Positions 8,115 to 20,405 of a DNA stretch of 32,000 nt are shown here, piece after piece; positions within the stretch are counted from its first letter, which is position 1, and each line of letters begins with the position of its first letter. The position numbers and the translations under genes are program-made. The notes beneath the pieces are model-generated. The model had not been told where the DNA came from and did no database searches. It saw only the letters and a list, made by a program, of their open reading frames with translations. This DNA is from Haloferax volcanii DS2 (GTDB taxonomy: Archaea; Halobacteriota; Halobacteria; Halobacteriales; Haloferacaceae). The stretch covers positions 1 to 32,000 of the forward strand of contig NC_013966.1 in assembly GCF_000025685.1 (NCBI RefSeq), in the 5' to 3' direction.

Positions 8115-9450
8115 TTTTATAAAGAACTAATCTGATATGTGAAATACGAATGGAGGACGTGATTCGCACCGTCAAGGTCAAACTCGACGTACCCAACGAG
8201 CGGTGCGACGACCTCCATCAGACAAAAAATCAGTTCCTCCACTGTGCGAACACTACTGCAGAGTGGGCGTGGAGACACCCGGACGACTACTGCGTGACCT
8301 CGAAACAGAAAGCCGAGAAAGCCCTCTACGAGCAACTCCGCAACGAGACAGAGTTGACTGCAAACCTCGTTCAGAAAGGGATTCGGCGTGCTATCGAGGC
8401 CACGAAAAGCGGTGTCGCCCGACTCAAGAAAGGCGACAACACGAGCCAACCGCACTTCGACGCGTGGAGCGTCGTCTACGACAAGCGTTCAGCGACGTTC
8501 CACCGCGACCACGTTTCGCTCTCGACGGTGAACGGTCGCGTCAAGTGTGACTACGTGATTCCCGACAGCTCCGAGGGAACGCCGATTGGCGAGTACCTGT
8601 TGAATGAGGATTACGAGTTCCGAATGTCCACGTTGCAATACGACCGCGCCACAGAGTCGTTCTACCTCCACGCACGGATGCGCCGAACCACAGACGAACA
8701 AGAGCTGTCGATGACTCATTCTGACGCCAAGCACAGAACAGTCCTTGGTGTTGACCTGAACGTGGACGGCTCGCTCGCCGTGACGTCCACAGGCGCGTTC
8801 ATCGGGAACGCCGACGAGATGAATCATCGACGCCGAGAGTTCGAGAAGACGCGTGGGTCGATGCAACAAACTGGAACGCGGTCGGCACACCTGTCGATTC
8901 AGTCGATGAAAAACCGCGGACACCGCTGGATGCAGGACGAACTACACCGAGCGTCTAACCAGATTCTCGAAGAAGCCCGCGACCACGACTGTACTCATAT
9001 CTCATTCGAGAATTTGACCGACATTCGTAAGCGGATGGCTGGCACCAAGCGGTTCCACGCATGGGCGTTCCGACGCCTGTACCAGTACACCGAATACAAA
9101 GCCGAAATGTTCGGAATCGGGGTTGAACAGATAAGTCCTGCATACACGAGTCAGCGGTGTTCCAAGTGTGGATTTACGCATGAGGACAATCGGCGGTCGA
9201 AGCACCAGTTCGTGTGTCAGAAGTGTGAGTACGAACTGAACGCGGAGTATAACGCGAGCAAAAACATCGCTCGCAAACTCTTGAAACGTCTCCACTCGGG
9301 GCAGAAGTCTTCGAGTGGAGGCGCACCCTGTCAGTGTGCGCTACCGTCAGGGACGCTGAACCTGAACGGCGATTTCTGCGCCTCCGTCGATTCGACGGCA
9401 GAAGGGGAGTCCACTGACAAGCCCACGACTTCAGTCGTGGGTAACTGACA
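8115..9450 (+). mobile_element. IS200/IS605-family (IS1341-type, tnpA-less) element; boundaries approximate
   Basis: It has a TATA-like ttttataaag at 8115-8124, tnpB, and a terminal hairpin cccacgac-ttca-gtcgtggg at 9422-9441. Confidence 0.6.
8150..9448 (+). CDS. tnpB: TnpB-family RNA-guided endonuclease (IS605 OrfB)
   Basis: RuvC-I is VLGVDLNVDG and RuvC-II is ISFENLTDIR. The zinc finger is CSKCG...CQKCE. RuvC-III reads LNAEYNASKNIA, with Glu where Asp is usual. Confidence 0.9.
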   Translation: MEDVIRTVKVKLDVPNERCDDLHQTKNQFLHCANTTAEWAWRHPDDYCVTSKQKAEKALYEQLRNETELTANLVQKGIRRAIEATKSGVARLKKGDNTSQPHFDAWSVVYDKRSATFHRDHVSLSTVNGRVKCDYVIPDSSEGTPIGEYLLNEDYEFRMSTLQYDRATESFYLHARMRRTTDEQELSMTHSDAKHRTVLGVDLNVDGSLAVTSTGAFIGNADEMNHRRREFEKTRGSMQQTGTRSAHLSIQSMKNRGHRWMQDELHRASNQILEEARDHDCTHISFENLTDIRKRMAGTKRFHAWAFRRLYQYTEYKAEMFGIGVEQISPAYTSQRCSKCGFTHEDNRRSKHQFVCQKCEYELNAEYNASKNIARKLLKRLHSGQKSSSGGAPCQCALPSGTLNLNGDFCASVDSTAEGESTDKPTTSVVGN

Positions 9451-9707: not shown

Positions 9708-9722
9708 ACCGCTCTGTTGAAA
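9708..9722 (+). repeat. Left copy of the 15-bp direct repeat GACCGCTCTGTTGAA
   Basis: It is identical to 14641-14655. The flanking ggt is also shared. Confidence 0.5.
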
Positions 9723-9937
9723 TCCTCAGCGCGGATAGTTTGTTGGGCCGTGCTGAACACATCGCGCGAATACAGCATCTGGGTCGATACCGTCTAAGGT
9801 GTGGGCTCGTCCTGAGTACGAGCTAGGTGCCGAAGGTTTTCTTCCAAGTAGGCTAGCACCATGAGAAGACATTACAGTGTGAATGCTAAGCACCCTCATT
9901 ACAGTTTTATTACAATTGCGGCATGATATCATACTGT

Positions 9938-12607: not shown

Positions 12608-12795
12608 GAAAGCCCTCGGCCGCTCGACGTCCCGCGACCGCCGCTGCGCGCCTCGTGCCTGCGGTGCTTGCGGGGTCGGGGGACGGCCGAGACGCCCTCG
12701 CCCTTTCTGAGTCCGCCAGGATTGTTGTTGGTCCATCAAGCGACGTGGCCGGTTGGTCAGGTGTGTACGTACCGGCCCGCCCCGCTCGCCATTGC
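12608..12795 (+). repeat. GC-rich dispersed repeat, copy A
   Basis: By eye it is roughly 75-80 percent identical to 14805-14990, for example gctgcgcgcctcgtgYctgcKgtgcttgcg...tcgggg...cccttt. Confidence 0.55.
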
Positions 12796-14655: not shown

Positions 14656-14804
14656 GACTTCAAAATCGTCTTGTCTATGGACTGCGCTTCCTCAGGGCCA
14701 GGAGGTGCCGACGCGTCAGCGAGACCATATGAACAGTGGATAACGCTGTGTCAAACGTCTTCTGTAGGGACAAACAGCTGCTAGCGTCGGTTGCGGTCTC
14801 CTCG

Positions 14805-15016
14805 AAAGCCCCCGAACGCTCGCCGGCCGCGACTCGCTGCGCGCCTCGTGTCTGCTGTGCTTGCGTCGTCGGGGCACGTCGAGCGCCCGGCCCCTTTCAG
14901 TCCCGCCCGGGATCTATTGGTGAGCCAGCGATCTCCATCGGTTGACTGGTGTGGTACGAACGGCACGCACCGCTCGCCGCATTCCGCCCTCCGCGTCGCT
15001 CGCGACCGACCATTCG
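14805..15016 (+). repeat. GC-rich dispersed repeat, copy B (longest)
   Basis: The left part matches 12608-12795. The right 56 bp (14960-15015) are identical to 20350-20405. Confidence 0.6.
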
Positions 15017-15099
15017 TAGAGGGTTCGATGTAATCACCAAGTTGGCGACAGTTTTTCACAGCCGTGCTGACTTGATGGAAATTCTGCTATCCCATCGGA

Positions 15100-15296
15100 G
15101 CGTGAATCAATTATGGGACGCAAGAGACCGAGCTGTATTCCGTGCGCTAGAGCACGTGGTGCTGACTGGTCCGAGTGCGAAAGAAGCCGAGTTATGGGCG
15201 TCACAGCCCGGATGCCGCTCCTGGCGGCATCCGGGAAAGCCCGCATAGGTGAATTTCTGATTCACGCACCGCCGTCCTATCCCGGAGGAACGAACC
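15100..15296 (+). ncRNA. Candidate IS110 bridge-RNA-like non-coding region in the left end
   Basis: It has a perfect 11-bp stem, ccggatgccgc/gcggcatccgg (15208-15234). It also holds internal copies of the left terminus (gtgctgact, 15159-15167), the right terminus (cataggtgaat, 15244-15254) and the left target flank (tcacagcc, 15201-15208). Confidence 0.35.
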
Positions 15297-16295
15297 ATGT
15301 ACCTCGGAATCGACCTACACAAACGATACGCACAGGTGGCAGTAATGGACCTCGAGGGCGAGATTGTCGAAGAGGTTCGCGTCAAAAACGCGAACCTCGA
15401 CGACCTCGCTCAGCGATACGCTGGCTCTCGTGCAGTAATCGAGGCGACCAGCAATTACTACCACGTCTACGATACTCTCGCGGAGTACTTGGACGTAACC
15501 GTCGCTCATCCAGGCAAACTGACGCTCATCGCTCGGTCAGACAAGAAAACCGACCGCGTCGACGCGAAAGAACTCGCGCGGCTGCTCCGGCTGAACTCTG
15601 TTCCGCAGAGTTACGTTCCTACCGACGAGATTCGGGAAGCCCGCGCACTCGTGCGCGGGCGACAGACCTTGGTCGAAGATCGGACCAAGTTCGCCAACAA
15701 AATCCACGGCTTGCTCGCCGATAACGGCATCACTCAGACGGTAAAACCGCTGAGTGTCGAGGGACGAGAGTTCCTCCGGGAACTCTCGCTCCCGTCTCCG
15801 TGGGACAGTCTCTTGGACTCGTATCTCGACGTGGTCGAGACGCTAACCGAGCAGATGACTCAGTTGGAAGCGGCGATTGAGGAGCGCGCTGGGTCTCTGA
15901 AGGAGACCCAGCTGCTGATGACCATCCCCGGTGTCAGTTACTACTCCGCGTTGCTGGTCTACGCTGAACTGGGTGAGATCGATCGGTTCGACGGCCACAA
16001 AGAGGTCGTGAGTTACATGGGACTGAACCCGACGATCCGCGAGTCCGGTGACTCGCGGATCGAGGGTGGTATCTCGAAACGCGGCTCAGGACGAGTTCGC
16101 TGGATCTTGGTTCAGAGTGCGTACTCAGCCGTGTACACGTGTAAAGACGCGTATCTAAGCACGTTCTTCCACCGGTTGAATCGTCGAATGAACTCGAAAA
16201 AAGCGATCGTCGCGACGGCACGAAAACTGCTCGTCTCGATGTACTACATGCTCGTCCGAGAGGAAGTCTACGATCCACCGGGGGTGAGCGCCTGA
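15297..16295 (+). CDS. IS110-family transposase (DEDD RuvC-like N-domain plus C-terminal Tnp domain)
   Basis: It contains YLGIDLHK, IEATSNYY, KTDRVDA, IPGVSYYSA and ISKRGSGRVR. Confidence 0.93.
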   Translation: MYLGIDLHKRYAQVAVMDLEGEIVEEVRVKNANLDDLAQRYAGSRAVIEATSNYYHVYDTLAEYLDVTVAHPGKLTLIARSDKKTDRVDAKELARLLRLNSVPQSYVPTDEIREARALVRGRQTLVEDRTKFANKIHGLLADNGITQTVKPLSVEGREFLRELSLPSPWDSLLDSYLDVVETLTEQMTQLEAAIEERAGSLKETQLLMTIPGVSYYSALLVYAELGEIDRFDGHKEVVSYMGLNPTIRESGDSRIEGGISKRGSGRVRWILVQSAYSAVYTCKDAYLSTFFHRLNRRMNSKKAIVATARKLLVSMYYMLVREEVYDPPGVSA

Positions 16296-16305
16296 AGAAG
16301 GGAAT

Positions 16306-16334
16306 CTGAGGAACGCCGGACCGGCGTTCCTCAG
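16306..16334 (+). terminator. Perfect 14-bp stem-loop just after the IS110 transposase stop
   Basis: The sequence is ctgaggaacgccgg-a-ccggcgttcctcag. It is conserved in copy 2, with a compensated loop region. Confidence 0.4.
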
Positions 16335-16537
16335 TGGCCGGATGAGGCCAGCGTAAGCGACAGCTCTAGCAAGACTCGTTCCGACCGCCTACCGGTTGTG
16401 GAGGTCTCAATCACCACGTTGTCTAGTGGTTTCTCGTCGTTGAGGGACTAGAGAAGCTAGATCGTGCGAACAACTTTATCGCCAGCGGTGGTTAGTTGAG
16501 CCAGCAGAATTTCCATAGGTGAATACAGCGCGCAAAT

Positions 16538-16861: not shown

Positions 16862-18325
16862 TATTCACCTATGGAAATTCTGCTGGCTCAACTAACCACC
16901 GCTAGCGATAAAGTTGTTCGCACGATTCCGTGTCTCTCGTTCTTCAACGGTGAAAAACCACTGGGCAACGTGGTGATTGAGACCTCCACAACCGATAGGC
17001 GGTCGGTACGAGTTCCGCGATAGCTGTCGCTCACGCTGGTTCCATCCGGCCACTGAGGAACGCCGGACTGGCGTTCCTCAGATTCCCTTCCTCAGGCGCT
17101 CACCCCCGGTGGATCGTAGACTTCCTCCCGGACGAGCATGTAGTACATCGAGACGAGCAGTTTTCGCGCCGTCGCAACGATTGCTTTTTTCGGGTTCATC
17201 CGACGGTTCAACCGGTGGAAGAACCGGCTCAGATACTCGTCTTTACACGTGTACACTGCTGAGTATGCACTCTGAACCAAAATCCACCGCACCCGTCCTG
17301 AACCACGTTTCGAGATACCACCCTCGATCCGCGAGTCGCCGGACTCGCGGATCGTCGGGTTCAGCCCCATGTAACTCACGACCTCCTTGTGGCTGTCGAA
17401 CCGATCAACTTCTCCAAGTTCTGCGTAGATCAGCAACGCGGAGTAGTAACTGACTCCAGGAATCGTCATGAGCAGCTGGGTCTCCTTCAGAGACCCAGCG
17501 CGCTCCTCAATCGCAGCTTCCAGCTGTGTCATCTGCTCGGTCAGGGTCTCAACCACGTCAAGGTACGACTCCAACAACGCGTCCCACGGGGACGGGAGCG
17601 AGAGTTCCCGGAGGAACTCTCGTCCCTTCACGCTCAGTGGCTTCACCTCGCGGGTGATACCGTTGTCAGCGAGCAAGCCATGGATCTTGTTGGCGAACTT
17701 GGTGCGATCTTCGACCAATGTCTGTCGCCCGCGCACGAGTGCGCGGGCTTGCCTGATCTCGTCGGTGGGAACGTAACTCTGCGGAACGGAGTTGAGTCGA
17801 AGCAACCGCGCGAGTTCTTTGGCGTCGACGCGGTCGGTTTTCTTGTCGGAGTGAGCGATGAGCGTCAGTTTACCTGGATGAGCGACGGTTACGTCCAAGT
17901 ACTCCGCGAGCGTATCGTAGACGTGGTAGTAATTGCTGGTCGCCTCGATGACCGCACGAGAGCCAGCGTAGCGTCGAGCGAGATCGTCGAGGTTCGCGTT
18001 TTTGACGCGAACCTCTTCGACAATCTGGCCTTCGCTGTCGATTACTGCTACCTGTGCGTACCGTTTGTGTAAGTCGATTCCGAGGTACATTGCTTGTTCC
18101 TCCGGGATAGGACGGCGGTGCGTGAATCAGAACTTCACCTATGCGGGCTTTCCCGGATGCCGCCAGGAGCGGCATCCGGGCTGTGACGCCCATAACTCGG
18201 CTTCTTTCGCACTCGGACCAGTCAGCACCACGTGCTCTGGGGCACGGAATACAGCTCGGTCTCTTGCGTCCCATGCTTGATTCACGCTCCGCAGGGATAG
18301 CAGAATTTCCATCAAGTCAGCACGA
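16862..18325 (-). mobile_element. IS110-family insertion sequence, copy 2 (1464 bp, inverted relative to copy 1)
   Basis: It has the same termini as copy 1. The right ends of the two copies face each other. Confidence 0.8.
17092..18090 (-). CDS. IS110-family transposase, copy 2
   Basis: It is 332 aa and differs from copy 1 at 17 positions by my count. Confidence 0.93.
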   Translation of the reverse strand: MYLGIDLHKRYAQVAVIDSEGQIVEEVRVKNANLDDLARRYAGSRAVIEATSNYYHVYDTLAEYLDVTVAHPGKLTLIAHSDKKTDRVDAKELARLLRLNSVPQSYVPTDEIRQARALVRGRQTLVEDRTKFANKIHGLLADNGITREVKPLSVKGREFLRELSLPSPWDALLESYLDVVETLTEQMTQLEAAIEERAGSLKETQLLMTIPGVSYYSALLIYAELGEVDRFDSHKEVVSYMGLNPTIRESGDSRIEGGISKRGSGRVRWILVQSAYSAVYTCKDEYLSRFFHRLNRRMNPKKAIVATARKLLVSMYYMLVREEVYDPPGVSA

Positions 18326-18671: not shown

Positions 18672-18755
18672 TGTGAATTCCGTTCGACTCGCCGTTGTTT
18701 TTTCGCGCCCGCGATGGGCGGAGGCGCGCGGAAGTGCAGACGTGCCTCGACAACC

Positions 18756-19970
18756 ATGCCAGACGAACGAATCCGAACAGTCGTTGCGTCGCTCGTCGAG
18801 CCGACGTCGCACAAAGAGCAGAAGCTTCAGAACCTGCAGTCAACCTATCGGGAAGCCCTCTGTGAAGCGTTCGACGCCAACGCAACGACGATGACGGCGG
18901 TCAACGATATTGTAACGCCCTACGACCTCCCGTACCAAGCGAAGGACGCGTTGAAGCGCCATGTTCCAGGCCTCCTCAAGAGCGGGTCAGCAGAACTCAG
19001 CGAGACCCAACCGATTCGGTTTACCAACCGGGCGGCGGTATTCGATCATTCCACCGACCGGACGCACGCATTCTGCTGGGAAGTTCCCCAACCTGGCCGT
19101 GGCACCAACTTCTGGATTCCGCTCGCAATCAATCCAGACCAACGCAAGTGGTGGCTCCAGTTGCTTGATGGCGAGGCTACTGCTGGACAGCTACAGCTGA
19201 TCACCCGGCCGCGACAGGCCCGTTGGGAACTGCACGTTCCGCTCAAACTCCCAACAACGACATCCGAAGTCGATTGCGAGACCTGCACGCCGGTCGGGTT
19301 CGACGTCGGCGAAGCGATTCTCTTGACCGGCTGTGCGCTCGTGAACGGGCGGCCAGTCGATCCGTTGCTCGTGGATGGTGGCAGAGCCCGACACCTCAAT
19401 CAGACATTGCAGACGACACTCCAACGGTTGCAGGAACGTGATGCCGCAGAGTGGCGAATTGACGAGCAGGCGGCGTACTTCCGGAACGCACTTCGGGACG
19501 AGATCGAGACGGCGACGCGAAACGCTGTGGAGTATGCCGCCGGGTTCGATCAGCCGGTACTCGTCCTCGAACAGCTGACGTCGATCCAAGAGGACCTCGA
19601 CTTCGGCCCACACATGAATCGGCGACTCCATGCGTGGGCTTTCGACCAGCTGCAAACGCGACTCGCAGACAAGGCTGCCGACGCGGAGATTCCGGTTCAG
19701 TACGTCGATCCGGCGTACACGTCCCAGATCTGCCATGCGTGTGGGGTGATTGGAACCCGTCCCAAGCAAGCGGAGTTTCGCTGTACGAACGACGACTGCT
19801 GGGTGTCAGTCTATCAGGCCGATATCAACGCGGCGGCCAACATTGCAGGTCGCCTTGATCCGTGGGGTGAGAGCTGTCCCTGGAACCCGGCCAGCGATGA
19901 CACGCTACGGAACGGGCGCACCCGTGACAGTGCCACAGGACCTCGTGAGCAGAGCCCGTCACAGCGATGA
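18756..19970 (+). CDS. tnpB: TnpB-family RNA-guided endonuclease (IS605 OrfB), second type
   Basis: It contains VGFDVGEAILL, the WAF motif (HAWAFDQLQ), the zinc finger CHACG...CTNDDC, and an intact RuvC-III YQADINAAANIA. ATG 18756 (MPDERIRTV) is preferred over 18714. Confidence 0.88.
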   Translation: MPDERIRTVVASLVEPTSHKEQKLQNLQSTYREALCEAFDANATTMTAVNDIVTPYDLPYQAKDALKRHVPGLLKSGSAELSETQPIRFTNRAAVFDHSTDRTHAFCWEVPQPGRGTNFWIPLAINPDQRKWWLQLLDGEATAGQLQLITRPRQARWELHVPLKLPTTTSEVDCETCTPVGFDVGEAILLTGCALVNGRPVDPLLVDGGRARHLNQTLQTTLQRLQERDAAEWRIDEQAAYFRNALRDEIETATRNAVEYAAGFDQPVLVLEQLTSIQEDLDFGPHMNRRLHAWAFDQLQTRLADKAADAEIPVQYVDPAYTSQICHACGVIGTRPKQAEFRCTNDDCWVSVYQADINAAANIAGRLDPWGESCPWNPASDDTLRNGRTRDSATGPREQSPSQR

Positions 19971-20340: not shown

Positions 20341-20347
20341 GAGTTCG

Positions 20348-20405
20348 GACGGCACGCACCGCTCGCCGCATTCCGCCCTCCGCGTCGCTCGCGACCGACC
20401 ATTCC
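20348..20405 (+). repeat. GC-rich dispersed repeat, partial copy C
   Basis: The 56 bp at 20350-20405 are identical to 14960-15015. Confidence 0.7.

What the first reader, a model, noticed from the sequence alone, without database searches (positions are those of the whole stretch)
15063..15296. The IS110 left-end non-coding region carries internal copies of both element termini and of the target flank (bridge-RNA-like)
Comparing the two IS110 copies defines the termini precisely: the left end is cgtgctgact... and the right end is ...cataggtgaata. Three short matches lie inside the 234-nt left-end leader. (1) gtgctgact (15159-15167) equals the left terminus at 15064-15072. (2) cataggtgaat (15244-15254) equals the right terminus at 16514-16524. 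(3) tcacagcc (15201-15208) equals the left target flank plus the first IS base at 15056-15063. The flank-like and right-terminus-like segments bracket a perfect 11-bp stem-loop (15208-15234). All three segments are conserved in copy 2, apart from one base change in the right-terminus copy. IS110-family recombinases are known to use an element-encoded bridge RNA, with one loop pairing to the donor (the element ends) and one to the target. This arrangement fits a haloarchaeal version of that RNA. Copy 1 is flanked by CAGC on both sides, a possible core or duplication.
Basis: partly seen in the sequence, partly recalled or inferred. Interest (0 to 1): 0.72.

Follow-up and report, generated by a model that had tools for sequence, protein, structure and literature searches.

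The report
Bridge RNA of a haloarchaeal insertion sequence
The untranslated leader of this archaeal jumping gene almost certainly encodes the guide ("bridge" or "seek") RNA that tells its recombinase where to insert; this mechanism has been known since 2024, so this is a new member with one unusual layout feature, not a new principle.

Summary
All three exact matches are in the sequence. Two beat chance (9-mer about 1%, 11-mer below 0.05% of shuffles). The third (TCACAGCC) is at chance level.

Comparison with 80 haloarchaeal relatives supports the bridge-RNA idea but changes the anatomy. The element does not end at 15063 and 16525. It recombines at a TG present at both junctions (15068-69 and 16520-21).

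The leader folds into two arms, with covariation support.
- **Arm 1 reads the target.** GGTGC-TG-ACT (15158-67) copies the left flank, the core and the first IS bases.
- **Arm 2 reads the element's own ends.** These guides are CGAGTTA (15188-94) and ATAGG-TG-AA (15245-53).

Across 24 guide classes the guides predict their own flanks (0 of 10,000 permutations do as well).

Four features place the element in the IS1111 group: a 14-bp subterminal inverted repeat, 7/3-bp terminal extensions, the order of the guides, and the closest transposases. However, its RNA lies upstream of the transposase gene, not downstream.

No transcript was shown. I rate it a new member of a known kind.

The parts
15068..16521 (+). 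IS copy 1 with both flanking TG cores. The element proper is 1452 bp if one TG is counted.
   Evidence: Junction comparison across 60+ insertions. Uninterrupted target-like sites.
15063..15067 (+). Left target flank CGTGC. Positions -4 to -1 (GTGC) are read by the guide.
   Evidence: The guide matches the flank at -4..-1 in 92-98% of 62 insertions, at -5 in 50% and at -6 in 15%.
15068..15069 (+). Left copy of the TG core (crossover dinucleotide).
   Evidence: TG at 67 of 68 left junctions.
15068..15074 (+). 7-bp left terminal extension, TGACTTG.
   Evidence: A (7,3) extension pattern occurs in 51 of 56 loci. This is an IS1111 hallmark (PMC11187229).
15075..15088 (+). Left subterminal inverted repeat, ATGGAAATTCTGCT.
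   Evidence: 14 of 14 complementary to 16503-16516 (I3). The repeat is 12-18 bp in relatives.
15100..15106 (+). 5' strand of the closing helix P0 (GCGTGAA). It pairs with 15261-15267.
   Evidence: Seven pairs, three with changes on both sides. The minimum-energy fold closes here.
15115..15120 (+). 5' strand of a second long-range helix (GGGACG). It pairs with 15273-15278 and crosses P0.
   Evidence: Six pairs, three with changes on both sides, 99% paired. Role unexplained.
15126..15130 (+). Target arm, basal stem 5' strand (GACCG). It pairs with 15167-15171.
   Evidence: 100% paired; two pairs have changes on both sides.
15132..15140 (+). Right-target guide GCTGTATTC. It is the reverse complement of core G plus right flank AATACAGC (16521-16529).
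   Evidence: Own-flank identity 0.84 against 0.48 permuted; 0 of 10000 permutations reach it. Positions +1..+7 match at 63-96%, then 23% at +8. In W1 the 9-mer is reached in 20 of 2000 shuffles.
15141..15156 (+). Target arm, top hairpin (CGTGC / GCACG).
   Evidence: Three pairs have changes on both sides.
15158..15167 (+). Left-target guide GGTGC, plus core TG, plus ACT (the IS start, handshake-like).
   Evidence: Own-flank identity 0.88 against 0.36 permuted; 0 of 10000 permutations reach it. TGACT becomes TGATT in both the guide and the IS start in L032 and L037.
15188..15194 (+). Donor guide for the IS left end. CGAGTTA pairs with top-strand TGACTTG, with two G-U/G-T wobbles.
   Evidence: Columns 130-133 co-vary with IS start columns 4-7. 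L032, L037 and L079 change on both sides.
15195..15243 (+). Donor arm interior: inner stem TGGGC / GCCCG, inner loop with the conserved ACAGCC, and a 12-bp top hairpin (15207-18 with 15224-35).
   Evidence: In the top hairpin, four pairs have changes on both sides. ACAGCC is conserved in relatives.
15245..15253 (+). Donor guide for the IS right end ATAGG, plus core TG, plus a 2-nt handshake AA that equals the first 2 nt of the right flank.
   Evidence: ATACGTG and AGAGGTG variants occur in both the guide and the right end. The two handshake columns have their highest mutual information with flank +1 and +2 and with the matching guide columns.
15261..15267 (+). 3' strand of the closing helix P0 (TTCACGC).
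15297..16295 (+). Transposase/recombinase gene, 332 aa.
   Evidence: PF01548 and PF02371. NF033542 scores 250 bits against a cut-off of 140. D6, E49, D86, D89 and S250 align with IS621 D11, E60, D102, D105 and S241.
16306..16334 (+). GC-rich hairpin just after the stop codon.
   Evidence: A hairpin is kept in 49 of 49 distinct right ends, with different stem sequences.
16467..16479 (+). Conserved A/T-rich BRE/TATA-like box (CGAACAACTTTAT) facing outward. It is a candidate promoter that would read across the junction in a circle.
   Evidence: A conserved A/T-rich block lies 40-52 nt before the IS end in 49 distinct right ends. Promoter function is inferred only.
16503..16516 (+). Right subterminal inverted repeat, AGCAGAATTTCCAT.
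   Evidence: I3.
16517..16519 (+). 3-bp right terminal extension, AGG.
16520..16521 (+). Right copy of the TG core.
   Evidence: TG at 56 of 59 right junctions.
16522..16529 (+). Right target flank AATACAGC, read by guide 15132-40.
16866..18319 (-). IS copy 2 with both TG cores (18319-18318 and 16867-16866). Transposase gene at 18090-17092.
18247..18255 (-). Copy 2 right-target guide GCTGTATTC. Its right flank AATATAGA (16865-16858) matches at 6 of 8 positions.
18220..18229 (-). Copy 2 left-target guide plus core plus handshake, GGTGCTGACT. Its left flank is CGTGC (18324-18320).
18193..18199 (-). Copy 2 donor guide for the left end, CGAGTTA.
18134..18142 (-). Copy 2 donor guide for the right end plus core plus handshake, ATAGGTGAA.

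Best explanation
Each copy is a 1452-bp insertion sequence of the IS110 superfamily, of the IS1111 type. Its 229-nt left-end leader encodes a bridge (seek) RNA of roughly 170-210 nt, about 15100 to 15267-15278, on the same strand as the transposase gene.

The RNA has two internal-loop arms.

**Arm 1 reads the target, about 13 nt in all.**
[quoted passage not shown] - It then runs on for 2-3 nt (15165-67) that copy the start of the element. This looks like a handshake guide for the strand that arrives after exchange.

**Arm 2 reads the joined ends of the excised element.**
- Its 5' strand (15188-94) pairs with TG plus ACT(C/T)G of the left end.
- Its 3' strand (15245-51) pairs with the complement of ATAGG plus TG of the right end.
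- It then runs on for 2 nt (15252-53) that copy the first 2 nt of the right target flank.

The DEDD-plus-serine recombinase would then recombine donor and target at the shared TG.

**Shown here:** the guide-to-flank and guide-to-end co-variation, the stem co-variation, the TG junctions, and the family hallmarks.

**Inferred:** that the RNA is made and bound by the protein, its exact ends, and the order of strand exchange. Also inferred is that a conserved outward-facing BRE/TATA-like box in the right end (16467-79) drives RNA and transposase expression only after the ends are joined in a circle.
For: **Guides predict flanks.** Across 46 insertions in 24 guide classes, the reverse complement of 15132-40 matches the own right flank at 0.84 against 0.48 for permuted pairs. 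Across 62 insertions in 24 classes, 15158-62 matches the own left flank at 0.88 against 0.36. In both cases 0 of 10000 permutations reach the observed value. The per-position match stops sharply at +8 and at -5/-6.

**Donor guides co-vary with the element's own ends.**
- TGATT, TGATG, ATACGTG and AGAGGTG variants change on both sides.
- The two handshake columns have their top mutual information with flank +1 and +2.

**Structure.** 62 distinct leaders are 97.7% paired. 15 pairs have changes on both sides, against 5.2 in shuffles and 2-7 in slid controls. There are many G-U pairs, which fit this strand only.

**Selection.** The two copies in the window differ at 3.0% of the RNA core, 9.7% of the coding sequence and 15.9% of the middle of the right end. 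None of the 5 core differences falls in a guide or a stem.

**The right end carries no guides.** The longest match to the own target is 5.57 nt against 5.64 for other targets. For the leader it is 7.93 against 6.02.

**Protein.** Pfam and NCBIfam give 'IS110 family RNA-guided transposase', and the catalytic residues are kept.

**Geometry.** Guide order and the 4/7-nt flank geometry match published IS1111 seekRNAs. For ISEc11, a 4-bp left flank and a 7-bp right flank were used in the mini-IS donor (PMC11187229).
Against: - There is no transcript, 5'-end or protein-binding evidence.
- No Rfam family matches the leader.
- No convincing archaeal promoter lies inside the leader upstream of 15100.
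- The helix that closes the donor loop on the outside is uncertain.
- Two co-variation-supported long-range helices cross each other.
- No circle junction and no empty-site allele turned up in metagenome contigs.
- Copy 2's right flank has a mismatch at a paired position (+5).
- Many sequences in the co-variation set are related, so the counts overstate the number of independent events. Even so, 24 guide classes is a lot.
Confidence: 0.9

Rival explanations
1. The element runs 15063-16525. GTGCTGACT is an internal copy of the donor's left terminus. TCACAGCC is the target-flank guide. CAGC is the core or a target duplication.
For: The two copies in the window are alike exactly from 15063 to 16525. 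All strings are present.
Against: Sister copies of one IS differ at -4, +1, +2 and +4, which lie inside the supposed termini. The variable bases next to TGACT and after GGTG track the guides, not the IS lineage. Uninterrupted GCCGTGCTGAATA sites exist. TCACAGCC is at chance level, and ACAGCC is conserved regardless of flank. CAGC flanks copy 1 only.
Confidence: 0.04
2. The leader is a structured 5' UTR, or a set of DNA sites bound by the transposase, that controls expression or end recognition. It has no guide function.
For: The leader is structured (z = -2.8). One conserved helix reaches to within 20 nt of the start codon (15273-78). Subterminal repeats could be protein sites.
Against: A regulatory leader or a protein site has no reason to co-vary with DNA outside the element. 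Here 24 guide classes match their own flanks on both sides. The strand asymmetry of the two guide halves, and the handshake columns, are what RNA-DNA pairing predicts.
Confidence: 0.04
3. The internal matches are chance, or are leftovers of nested or tandem insertions.
For: One of the three matches (the 8-mer) is at chance level.
Against: The 11-mer is reached in 0 of 2000 shuffles and the two 9-mers in about 1%. The same arrangement is kept in 62 distinct leaders from many genera, with co-variation.
Confidence: 0.01

Closest known systems
IS1111-family elements and their seekRNA / bridge RNA (ISEc11, ISPa11, ISKpn4, IS1111A; Siddiquee et al. 2024, PMC11187229; Durrant et al. 2024, PMC11208160)
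   Same: - A long subterminal inverted repeat: 14 bp here, 12-18 bp in relatives.
- 7-bp left and 3-bp right terminal extensions.
- The segment complementary to the top strand comes before the bottom-strand segment.
- About 4 nt of left flank and 7 nt of right flank are read.
- The transposase is about 330-340 aa.
- The best blastp matches among nine reference transposases are IS1111A (E = 2e-29) and ISPa11 (E = 3e-23).
   Different: The guide RNA lies upstream of the transposase gene, not downstream; the right end carries no target matches. Both non-coding ends are long, about 230 nt each. The host is archaeal. The transposase is only 26-29% identical. Siddiquee et al. mention that a few IS1111 elements have an upstream non-coding region or two long ones, but do not characterise them.
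IS621 bridge RNA (IS110 group; Durrant et al. 2024; Hiraizumi et al. 2024, PMC11208158)
   Same: - The RNA is encoded in the left end, upstream of the recombinase gene.
- Two internal-loop arms, target loop first and donor loop second.
- Each loop has one guide per DNA strand, overlapping on a core dinucleotide.
- One guide reads about 9 nt and the other about 6-7 nt, including the core.
- 2-nt handshake guides copy the non-cognate partner.
- The catalytic DEDD plus Ser residues are kept.
   Different: The polarity is mirrored. [quoted passage not shown] Here it pairs with the top strand, so the site is flipped relative to the gene. The core is TG, not CT. There is a 14-bp subterminal repeat instead of 2-3 bp. 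Protein similarity is weak (26% identity, E = 7e-14; PDB match to the C-terminal part only).
REP-, attC- and TIR-targeting IS110/IS1111 elements (ISPpu9, ISPpu10, ISPa11, IS4321/IS5075)
   Same: The targets of the commonest guide class look like members of a short, repeated intergenic sequence family. They share bases beyond the guide-paired 13 nt.
   Different: The haloarchaeal target family is not identified. There is no consistent neighbouring gene and no longer repeat.

Membership tests
IS110 superfamily (DEDD recombinase insertion sequences) | [quoted passage not shown] | tested here: met
   E = 1.8e-18 and 2.2e-20, both above the gathering score. NF033542 'IS110 family RNA-guided transposase' scores 250 bits against a cut-off of 140.
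IS110 superfamily (DEDD recombinase insertion sequences) | Catalytic D-E-D-D plus serine | tested here: met
   D6, E49, D86, D89 and S250 align with IS621 D11, E60, D102, D105 and S241. They are invariant in 22 homologues.
IS110 superfamily (DEDD recombinase insertion sequences) | No terminal inverted repeats; a short core shared by both junctions rather than a true target duplication | tested here: met
   TG is present at both junctions in 52 of 56 loci with both ends.
IS1111 group | Subterminal inverted repeats of 7-17 bp | tested here: met
   A perfect 14 bp, 15075-88 with 16503-16; 12-18 bp in 55 of 56 relatives.
IS1111 group | Asymmetric terminal extensions, 7 bp left and 3 bp right | tested here: met
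   TGACTTG and AGG. The (7,3) pattern occurs in 51 of 56 loci. Criterion from PMC11187229.
IS1111 group | The top-strand complement comes before the bottom-strand match in the RNA | tested here: met
   15132-40 (complement of the top strand) lies 5' of 15158-67 (copy of the top strand).
IS1111 group | The guide RNA is encoded in the non-coding region downstream of the transposase gene | tested here: not met
   All four guides lie in the upstream leader. The right end has no target matches above background: 5.57 against 5.64 nt.
IS1111 group | Transposase closer to IS1111-type than to IS110-type references | tested here: met
   IS1111A E = 2e-29, ISPa11 3e-23, ISEc11 7e-17. Against these, IS621 gives 7e-14, IS2112 4e-6 and ISEc21 is not significant. 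Only nine references were used, and no tree was built.
Bridge RNA (IS621 type) | Two internal loops, each with a pair of guides for the two strands of target or donor, overlapping on the core | tested here: met
   Co-variation of all four guides with flanks or ends. Stems supported.
Bridge RNA (IS621 type) | Handshake guides complementary to the non-cognate DNA | tested here: met
   15252-53 co-vary with flank +1 and +2. 15165-66 follow the IS start in L032, L037 and L079.
Bridge RNA (IS621 type) | [quoted passage not shown] | tested here: not met
   The order is reversed here.
Bridge RNA (IS621 type) | The RNA is expressed, binds the recombinase and is required for recombination | not testable with these tools
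   No expression or biochemical data. No Rfam model exists for comparison.

The most novel reading that the evidence does not exclude
A widespread haloarchaeal clade of IS1111-type elements has moved the complete two-loop bridge RNA to the 5' side of the recombinase gene. It may express that RNA from an outward-facing archaeal BRE/TATA promoter in the right end, and so only after circularisation. This would be the first archaeal (high-salt) bridge recombinase system with a fully assigned guide code: a 4-5 + TG + 7 nt target, 2-nt handshakes, and 24 naturally reprogrammed guide classes. It would also be a natural intermediate between the IS110 and IS1111 layouts.
Probability: 0.4. Interest if true: 0.45.

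Novelty: new member of a known kind. Interest (0 to 1): 0.3.

Why it matters
**What it adds.** RNA-guided IS110/IS1111 recombination was described in 2024, and NCBI already names these haloarchaeal proteins 'RNA-guided transposase'. The principle is therefore not new. The added value is a concrete, co-variation-backed guide map for an archaeal lineage.

**Evolutionary interest.** The element combines IS1111 hallmarks with an upstream-encoded RNA. That bears on how the RNA gene moved between element ends during the IS110/IS1111 split.

**Practical uses.**
- The map allows correct annotation of element ends, which are off by 4-5 nt if taken from copy comparison.
- It allows target sites to be predicted in haloarchaeal genomes.
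- It offers a salt-adapted recombinase and RNA pair that could be tested as a genome-engineering tool in Haloferax or Halobacterium.

Tried and rejected
**Searches that found nothing**
- Rfam, at gathering and at permissive thresholds, has no family in the leader.
- A metagenome scan for the predicted circle junction TTTCCATAGGTGACTYGATGGAAA gave 0 hits. So did a scan for the reconstructed empty site of copy 1.
- The circle-junction pattern is also absent from the 80 loci.
- The Durrant supplement has no haloarchaeal IS names, and no paper holds both 'bridge RNA' and 'haloarchaea'.

**Ideas tested and rejected**
- *The target is the right end of TnpB (IS605-type) elements.* An intact target-like site lies 300 nt downstream of a tnpB gene in the window. 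However, no tnpB lies within 1.5 kb of any of the 80 loci, the flanks hold unrelated genes, and copy 2 sits upstream of, and inverted relative to, the other tnpB.
- *The 62-nt repeat left of copy 1 is part of the target.* It ends 50 nt short of it.
- *The variable trinucleotide 15200-02 is a further guide.* It has no co-variation partner.
- *A second guide RNA lies in the right end.* Rejected.
- *C/D-box or K-turn motifs.* I looked by eye. The CUGA-like strings are not conserved across relatives.

**Weak lead**
- A Haloferax volcanii sRNA survey lists highly expressed sRNAs at IS110-family transposase loci, but calls them antisense (PMC5892119). I treat this as a lead, not as evidence.

Full report
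**What is there**

The window holds two copies of one insertion sequence.
- Copy 1 is on the plus strand, with its transposase gene at 15297-16295.
- Copy 2 is on the minus strand, with its gene at 18090-17092. The two lie tail to tail, 344 bp apart.

The 332-aa protein carries both IS110-family Pfam domains. It passes NCBI's model 'IS110 family RNA-guided transposase' at 250 bits against a cut-off of 140. It keeps the residues that align with IS621 D11, E60, D102, D105 and S241.

Close homologues (76-91% identity) are abundant in haloarchaeal genomes and hypersaline metagenomes.

**Check of the observation**

All three pairs of strings are at the stated coordinates. The hairpin between two of them is a perfect 12-bp stem.

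I compared 2000 dinucleotide-preserving shuffles of the leader interior with 30-nt junction windows.

| Match | Shuffles reaching it |
|---|---|
| 9-mer GTGCTGACT | 19 of 2000 |
| 11-mer CATAGGTGAAT | 0 of 2000 |
| any 8-mer, four comparisons | 332 of 2000 |

TCACAGCC is therefore not above chance. GCTGTATTC (15132-40) pairs with GAATACAGC across the right junction (20 of 2000 shuffles).

**Relatives**

A protein-profile scan of one genome per species returned 80 haloarchaeal loci. I extracted 62 distinct leaders and the sequences of both junctions. Four results follow.

*1. The element ends are not where the two copies stop being alike.*
- Across the family both junctions carry TG: 67 of 68 left junctions and 56 of 59 right junctions.
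- The few bases outside TG vary from lineage to lineage. They even vary between sister copies of one IS in one genome, at -4, +1, +2 and +4.
- Uninterrupted GCCGTGC-TG-AATA(C/G)AG... sequences occur in the window (9748-63) and in several loci.
- So CGTGC (15063-67) and AATA (16522-25) are target DNA. They look like element only because both copies chose similar sites.
- Copy 1 is 15068/70 to 16519/21, which is 1452 bp.

*2. Arm 1 of the leader reads the target.*
- The reverse complement of 15132-40 matches each element's own right flank. Class-level identity is 0.84 against 0.48 for permuted pairs, with 0 of 10000 permutations as high. This covers 46 insertions in 24 guide classes.
- The per-position match is 63-96% at +1 to +7 and falls to 23% at +8.
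- The segment 15158-62 matches each element's own left flank at 0.88 against 0.36, again with 0 of 10000 permutations. This covers 62 insertions.
- Here the match is 92-98% at -4 to -1, 50% at -5 and 15% at -6.
- This segment continues through TG into ACT, the first bases of the element. Where the element starts TGATT (L032, L037) the guide reads TGATT too.

*3. Arm 2 reads the element's own ends.*
- 15188-94 (CGAGTTA; CGAGTCA in most relatives) is the reverse complement of TG+ACTCG. It co-varies with the element start (L032, L037 and L079).
- 15245-51 (ATAGGTG) copies the right end plus TG. The variants ATACGTG and AGAGGTG occur in both places.
- The next two bases (15252-53) have their highest mutual information with flank positions +1 and +2 and with the matching columns of the right-target guide. 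This is what a 2-nt handshake guide predicts (Hiraizumi et al.).

*4. The stems are real.*
- On the 62 leaders the proposed helices are 97.7% paired.
- 15 pairs have changes on both sides, against 5.2 in column shuffles and 2-7 when partners are slid.
- There are many G-U pairs, which would be C-A on the other strand.
- The minimum-energy fold of 15100-15267 gives the same two-arm shape closed by 15100-09 with 15258-67.

Selection agrees with this picture. The two copies in the window differ at 3.0% of the RNA core, 9.7% of the coding sequence (73 of 97 differences at third codon positions) and 15.9% of the middle of the right end. None of the five core differences touches a guide or a stem.

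**What it is like**

Compared with IS621, the logic is the same: target loop then donor loop, one guide per strand overlapping on a core, a longer and a shorter guide, and 2-nt handshakes. The polarity is mirrored. [quoted passage not shown]

That mirrored order is exactly what Siddiquee et al. report for IS1111-family seekRNAs. The other IS1111 hallmarks are present too:
- a 14-bp subterminal inverted repeat (12-18 bp in relatives);
- 7-bp left and 3-bp right extensions, in 51 of 56 loci;
- about 4 nt of left and 7 nt of right flank recognised, matching the 4-bp and 7-bp flanks used in the ISEc11 mini-IS donor;
- best blastp hits to IS1111A and ISPa11 rather than to IS621 or ISEc21.

The one defining feature not met is the position of the RNA. 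In IS1111 elements it lies downstream of the gene. Here all guides are upstream, and the 224-nt right end has no target matches above background. Siddiquee et al. note that a few IS1111 members have an upstream or a double non-coding region. Durrant et al. report a minority of exceptions in RNA location. This layout is therefore a recognised but uncharacterised exception.

**Expression (inferred only)**

I found no conserved archaeal promoter in the leader upstream of 15100. The right end has a conserved purine-rich and A/T-rich box (CGAACAACTTTAT, 16467-79) 40-52 nt before the element end, facing outward.

With the usual archaeal spacing, transcription would start near the right subterminal repeat. 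It would cross into the leader only when the ends are joined in a circle. This would be the archaeal counterpart of the junction promoters of IS621 and ISEc11. Such a transcript would begin with a 14-bp hairpin made of the two subterminal repeats.

**Open points**
- Two co-variation-supported long-range helices cross each other: 15100-06 with 15261-67, and 15115-20 with 15273-78.
- The outer closure of the donor loop is unclear.
- The variable trinucleotide 15200-02 has no partner.
- In L027 and L049 the right junction reads TA while the left reads TG. L008 shows the reverse. This suggests the second core base can differ between donor and target.
- Neither a circle junction nor an empty-site allele was found in metagenome contigs.

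**Verdict**

The feature is a bridge/seek RNA of an IS1111-type haloarchaeal insertion sequence. It is well supported by comparative evidence and lacks only experimental proof. It is a new member of a known kind, with a noteworthy upstream RNA position. Interest is modest.

Noticed in passing
window 8150-9448 (+) and 18714-19970 (+): Two TnpB-like ORFs of 432 and 418 aa, both with Pfam PF07282 (Cas12f1-like TNB domain). They are only 25% identical to each other. They point to IS200/IS605-type elements in the same window.
   Followed up: partly
window 9716-9790: An uninterrupted target-like site, GTTGAAATCCTCA...GGGCCGTGC-TG-AACACATCGCGCG. It has 2 mismatches to the 16-mer that the guides of both copies specify. 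It is a possible free landing site, 300 nt downstream of the first tnpB.
   Followed up: partly
flanks of W1, W2, L005, L008, L009, L017, L019, L021, L025, L033; uninterrupted copies at L021:3422, L055:2645, L062:1985(-), L031:2968(-): Targets of the commonest guide class share sequence well beyond the 13 guide-paired bases (GTTGAAAnCCTCA ... GCC GTGC TG AATAnAG AGCGCG nAT). This looks like a short intergenic repeat family, comparable to the REP targets of bacterial relatives. I found no consistent neighbouring gene and no longer repeat.
   Followed up: partly
window 16306-16334, and the same place in 49 of 49 distinct right ends: A GC-rich hairpin lies immediately after the transposase stop codon. 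It is kept with quite different stem sequences, so it is conserved in structure. It may be a terminator or a 3'-end stabiliser. A weak Rfam hit there (STnc420, 27.6 bits against a threshold of 70) is chance.
   Followed up: partly
window 14954-15015 and 20343-20404; also 12608-12790 against 14804-14978: A 62-nt direct repeat (97% identity) and a looser 187-nt repeat (74% identity) lie in intergenic DNA. One copy ends about 50 nt left of copy 1 and is not part of its target.
   Followed up: partly
L070, right end: The last roughly 85 nt of the right end occur twice in tandem (…CCATAGGTGCCGGTTGGGAGAACAGCAG…CCATAGGTGCAGCCGAGCG). This may be the trace of a second, truncated insertion or of an aberrant recombination at the element end.
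   Followed up: no
L027 and L049 right junctions; L008 left junction: The second base of the core differs between the two junctions of one element: TG on the left and TA on the right, or the reverse. In L027 and L049 the right-target guide carries the matching U.
   Followed up: no
L046 and L068: These are truncated elements. The leader is replaced upstream of the donor arm by unrelated DNA, while the transposase gene and the right end remain.
   Followed up: no
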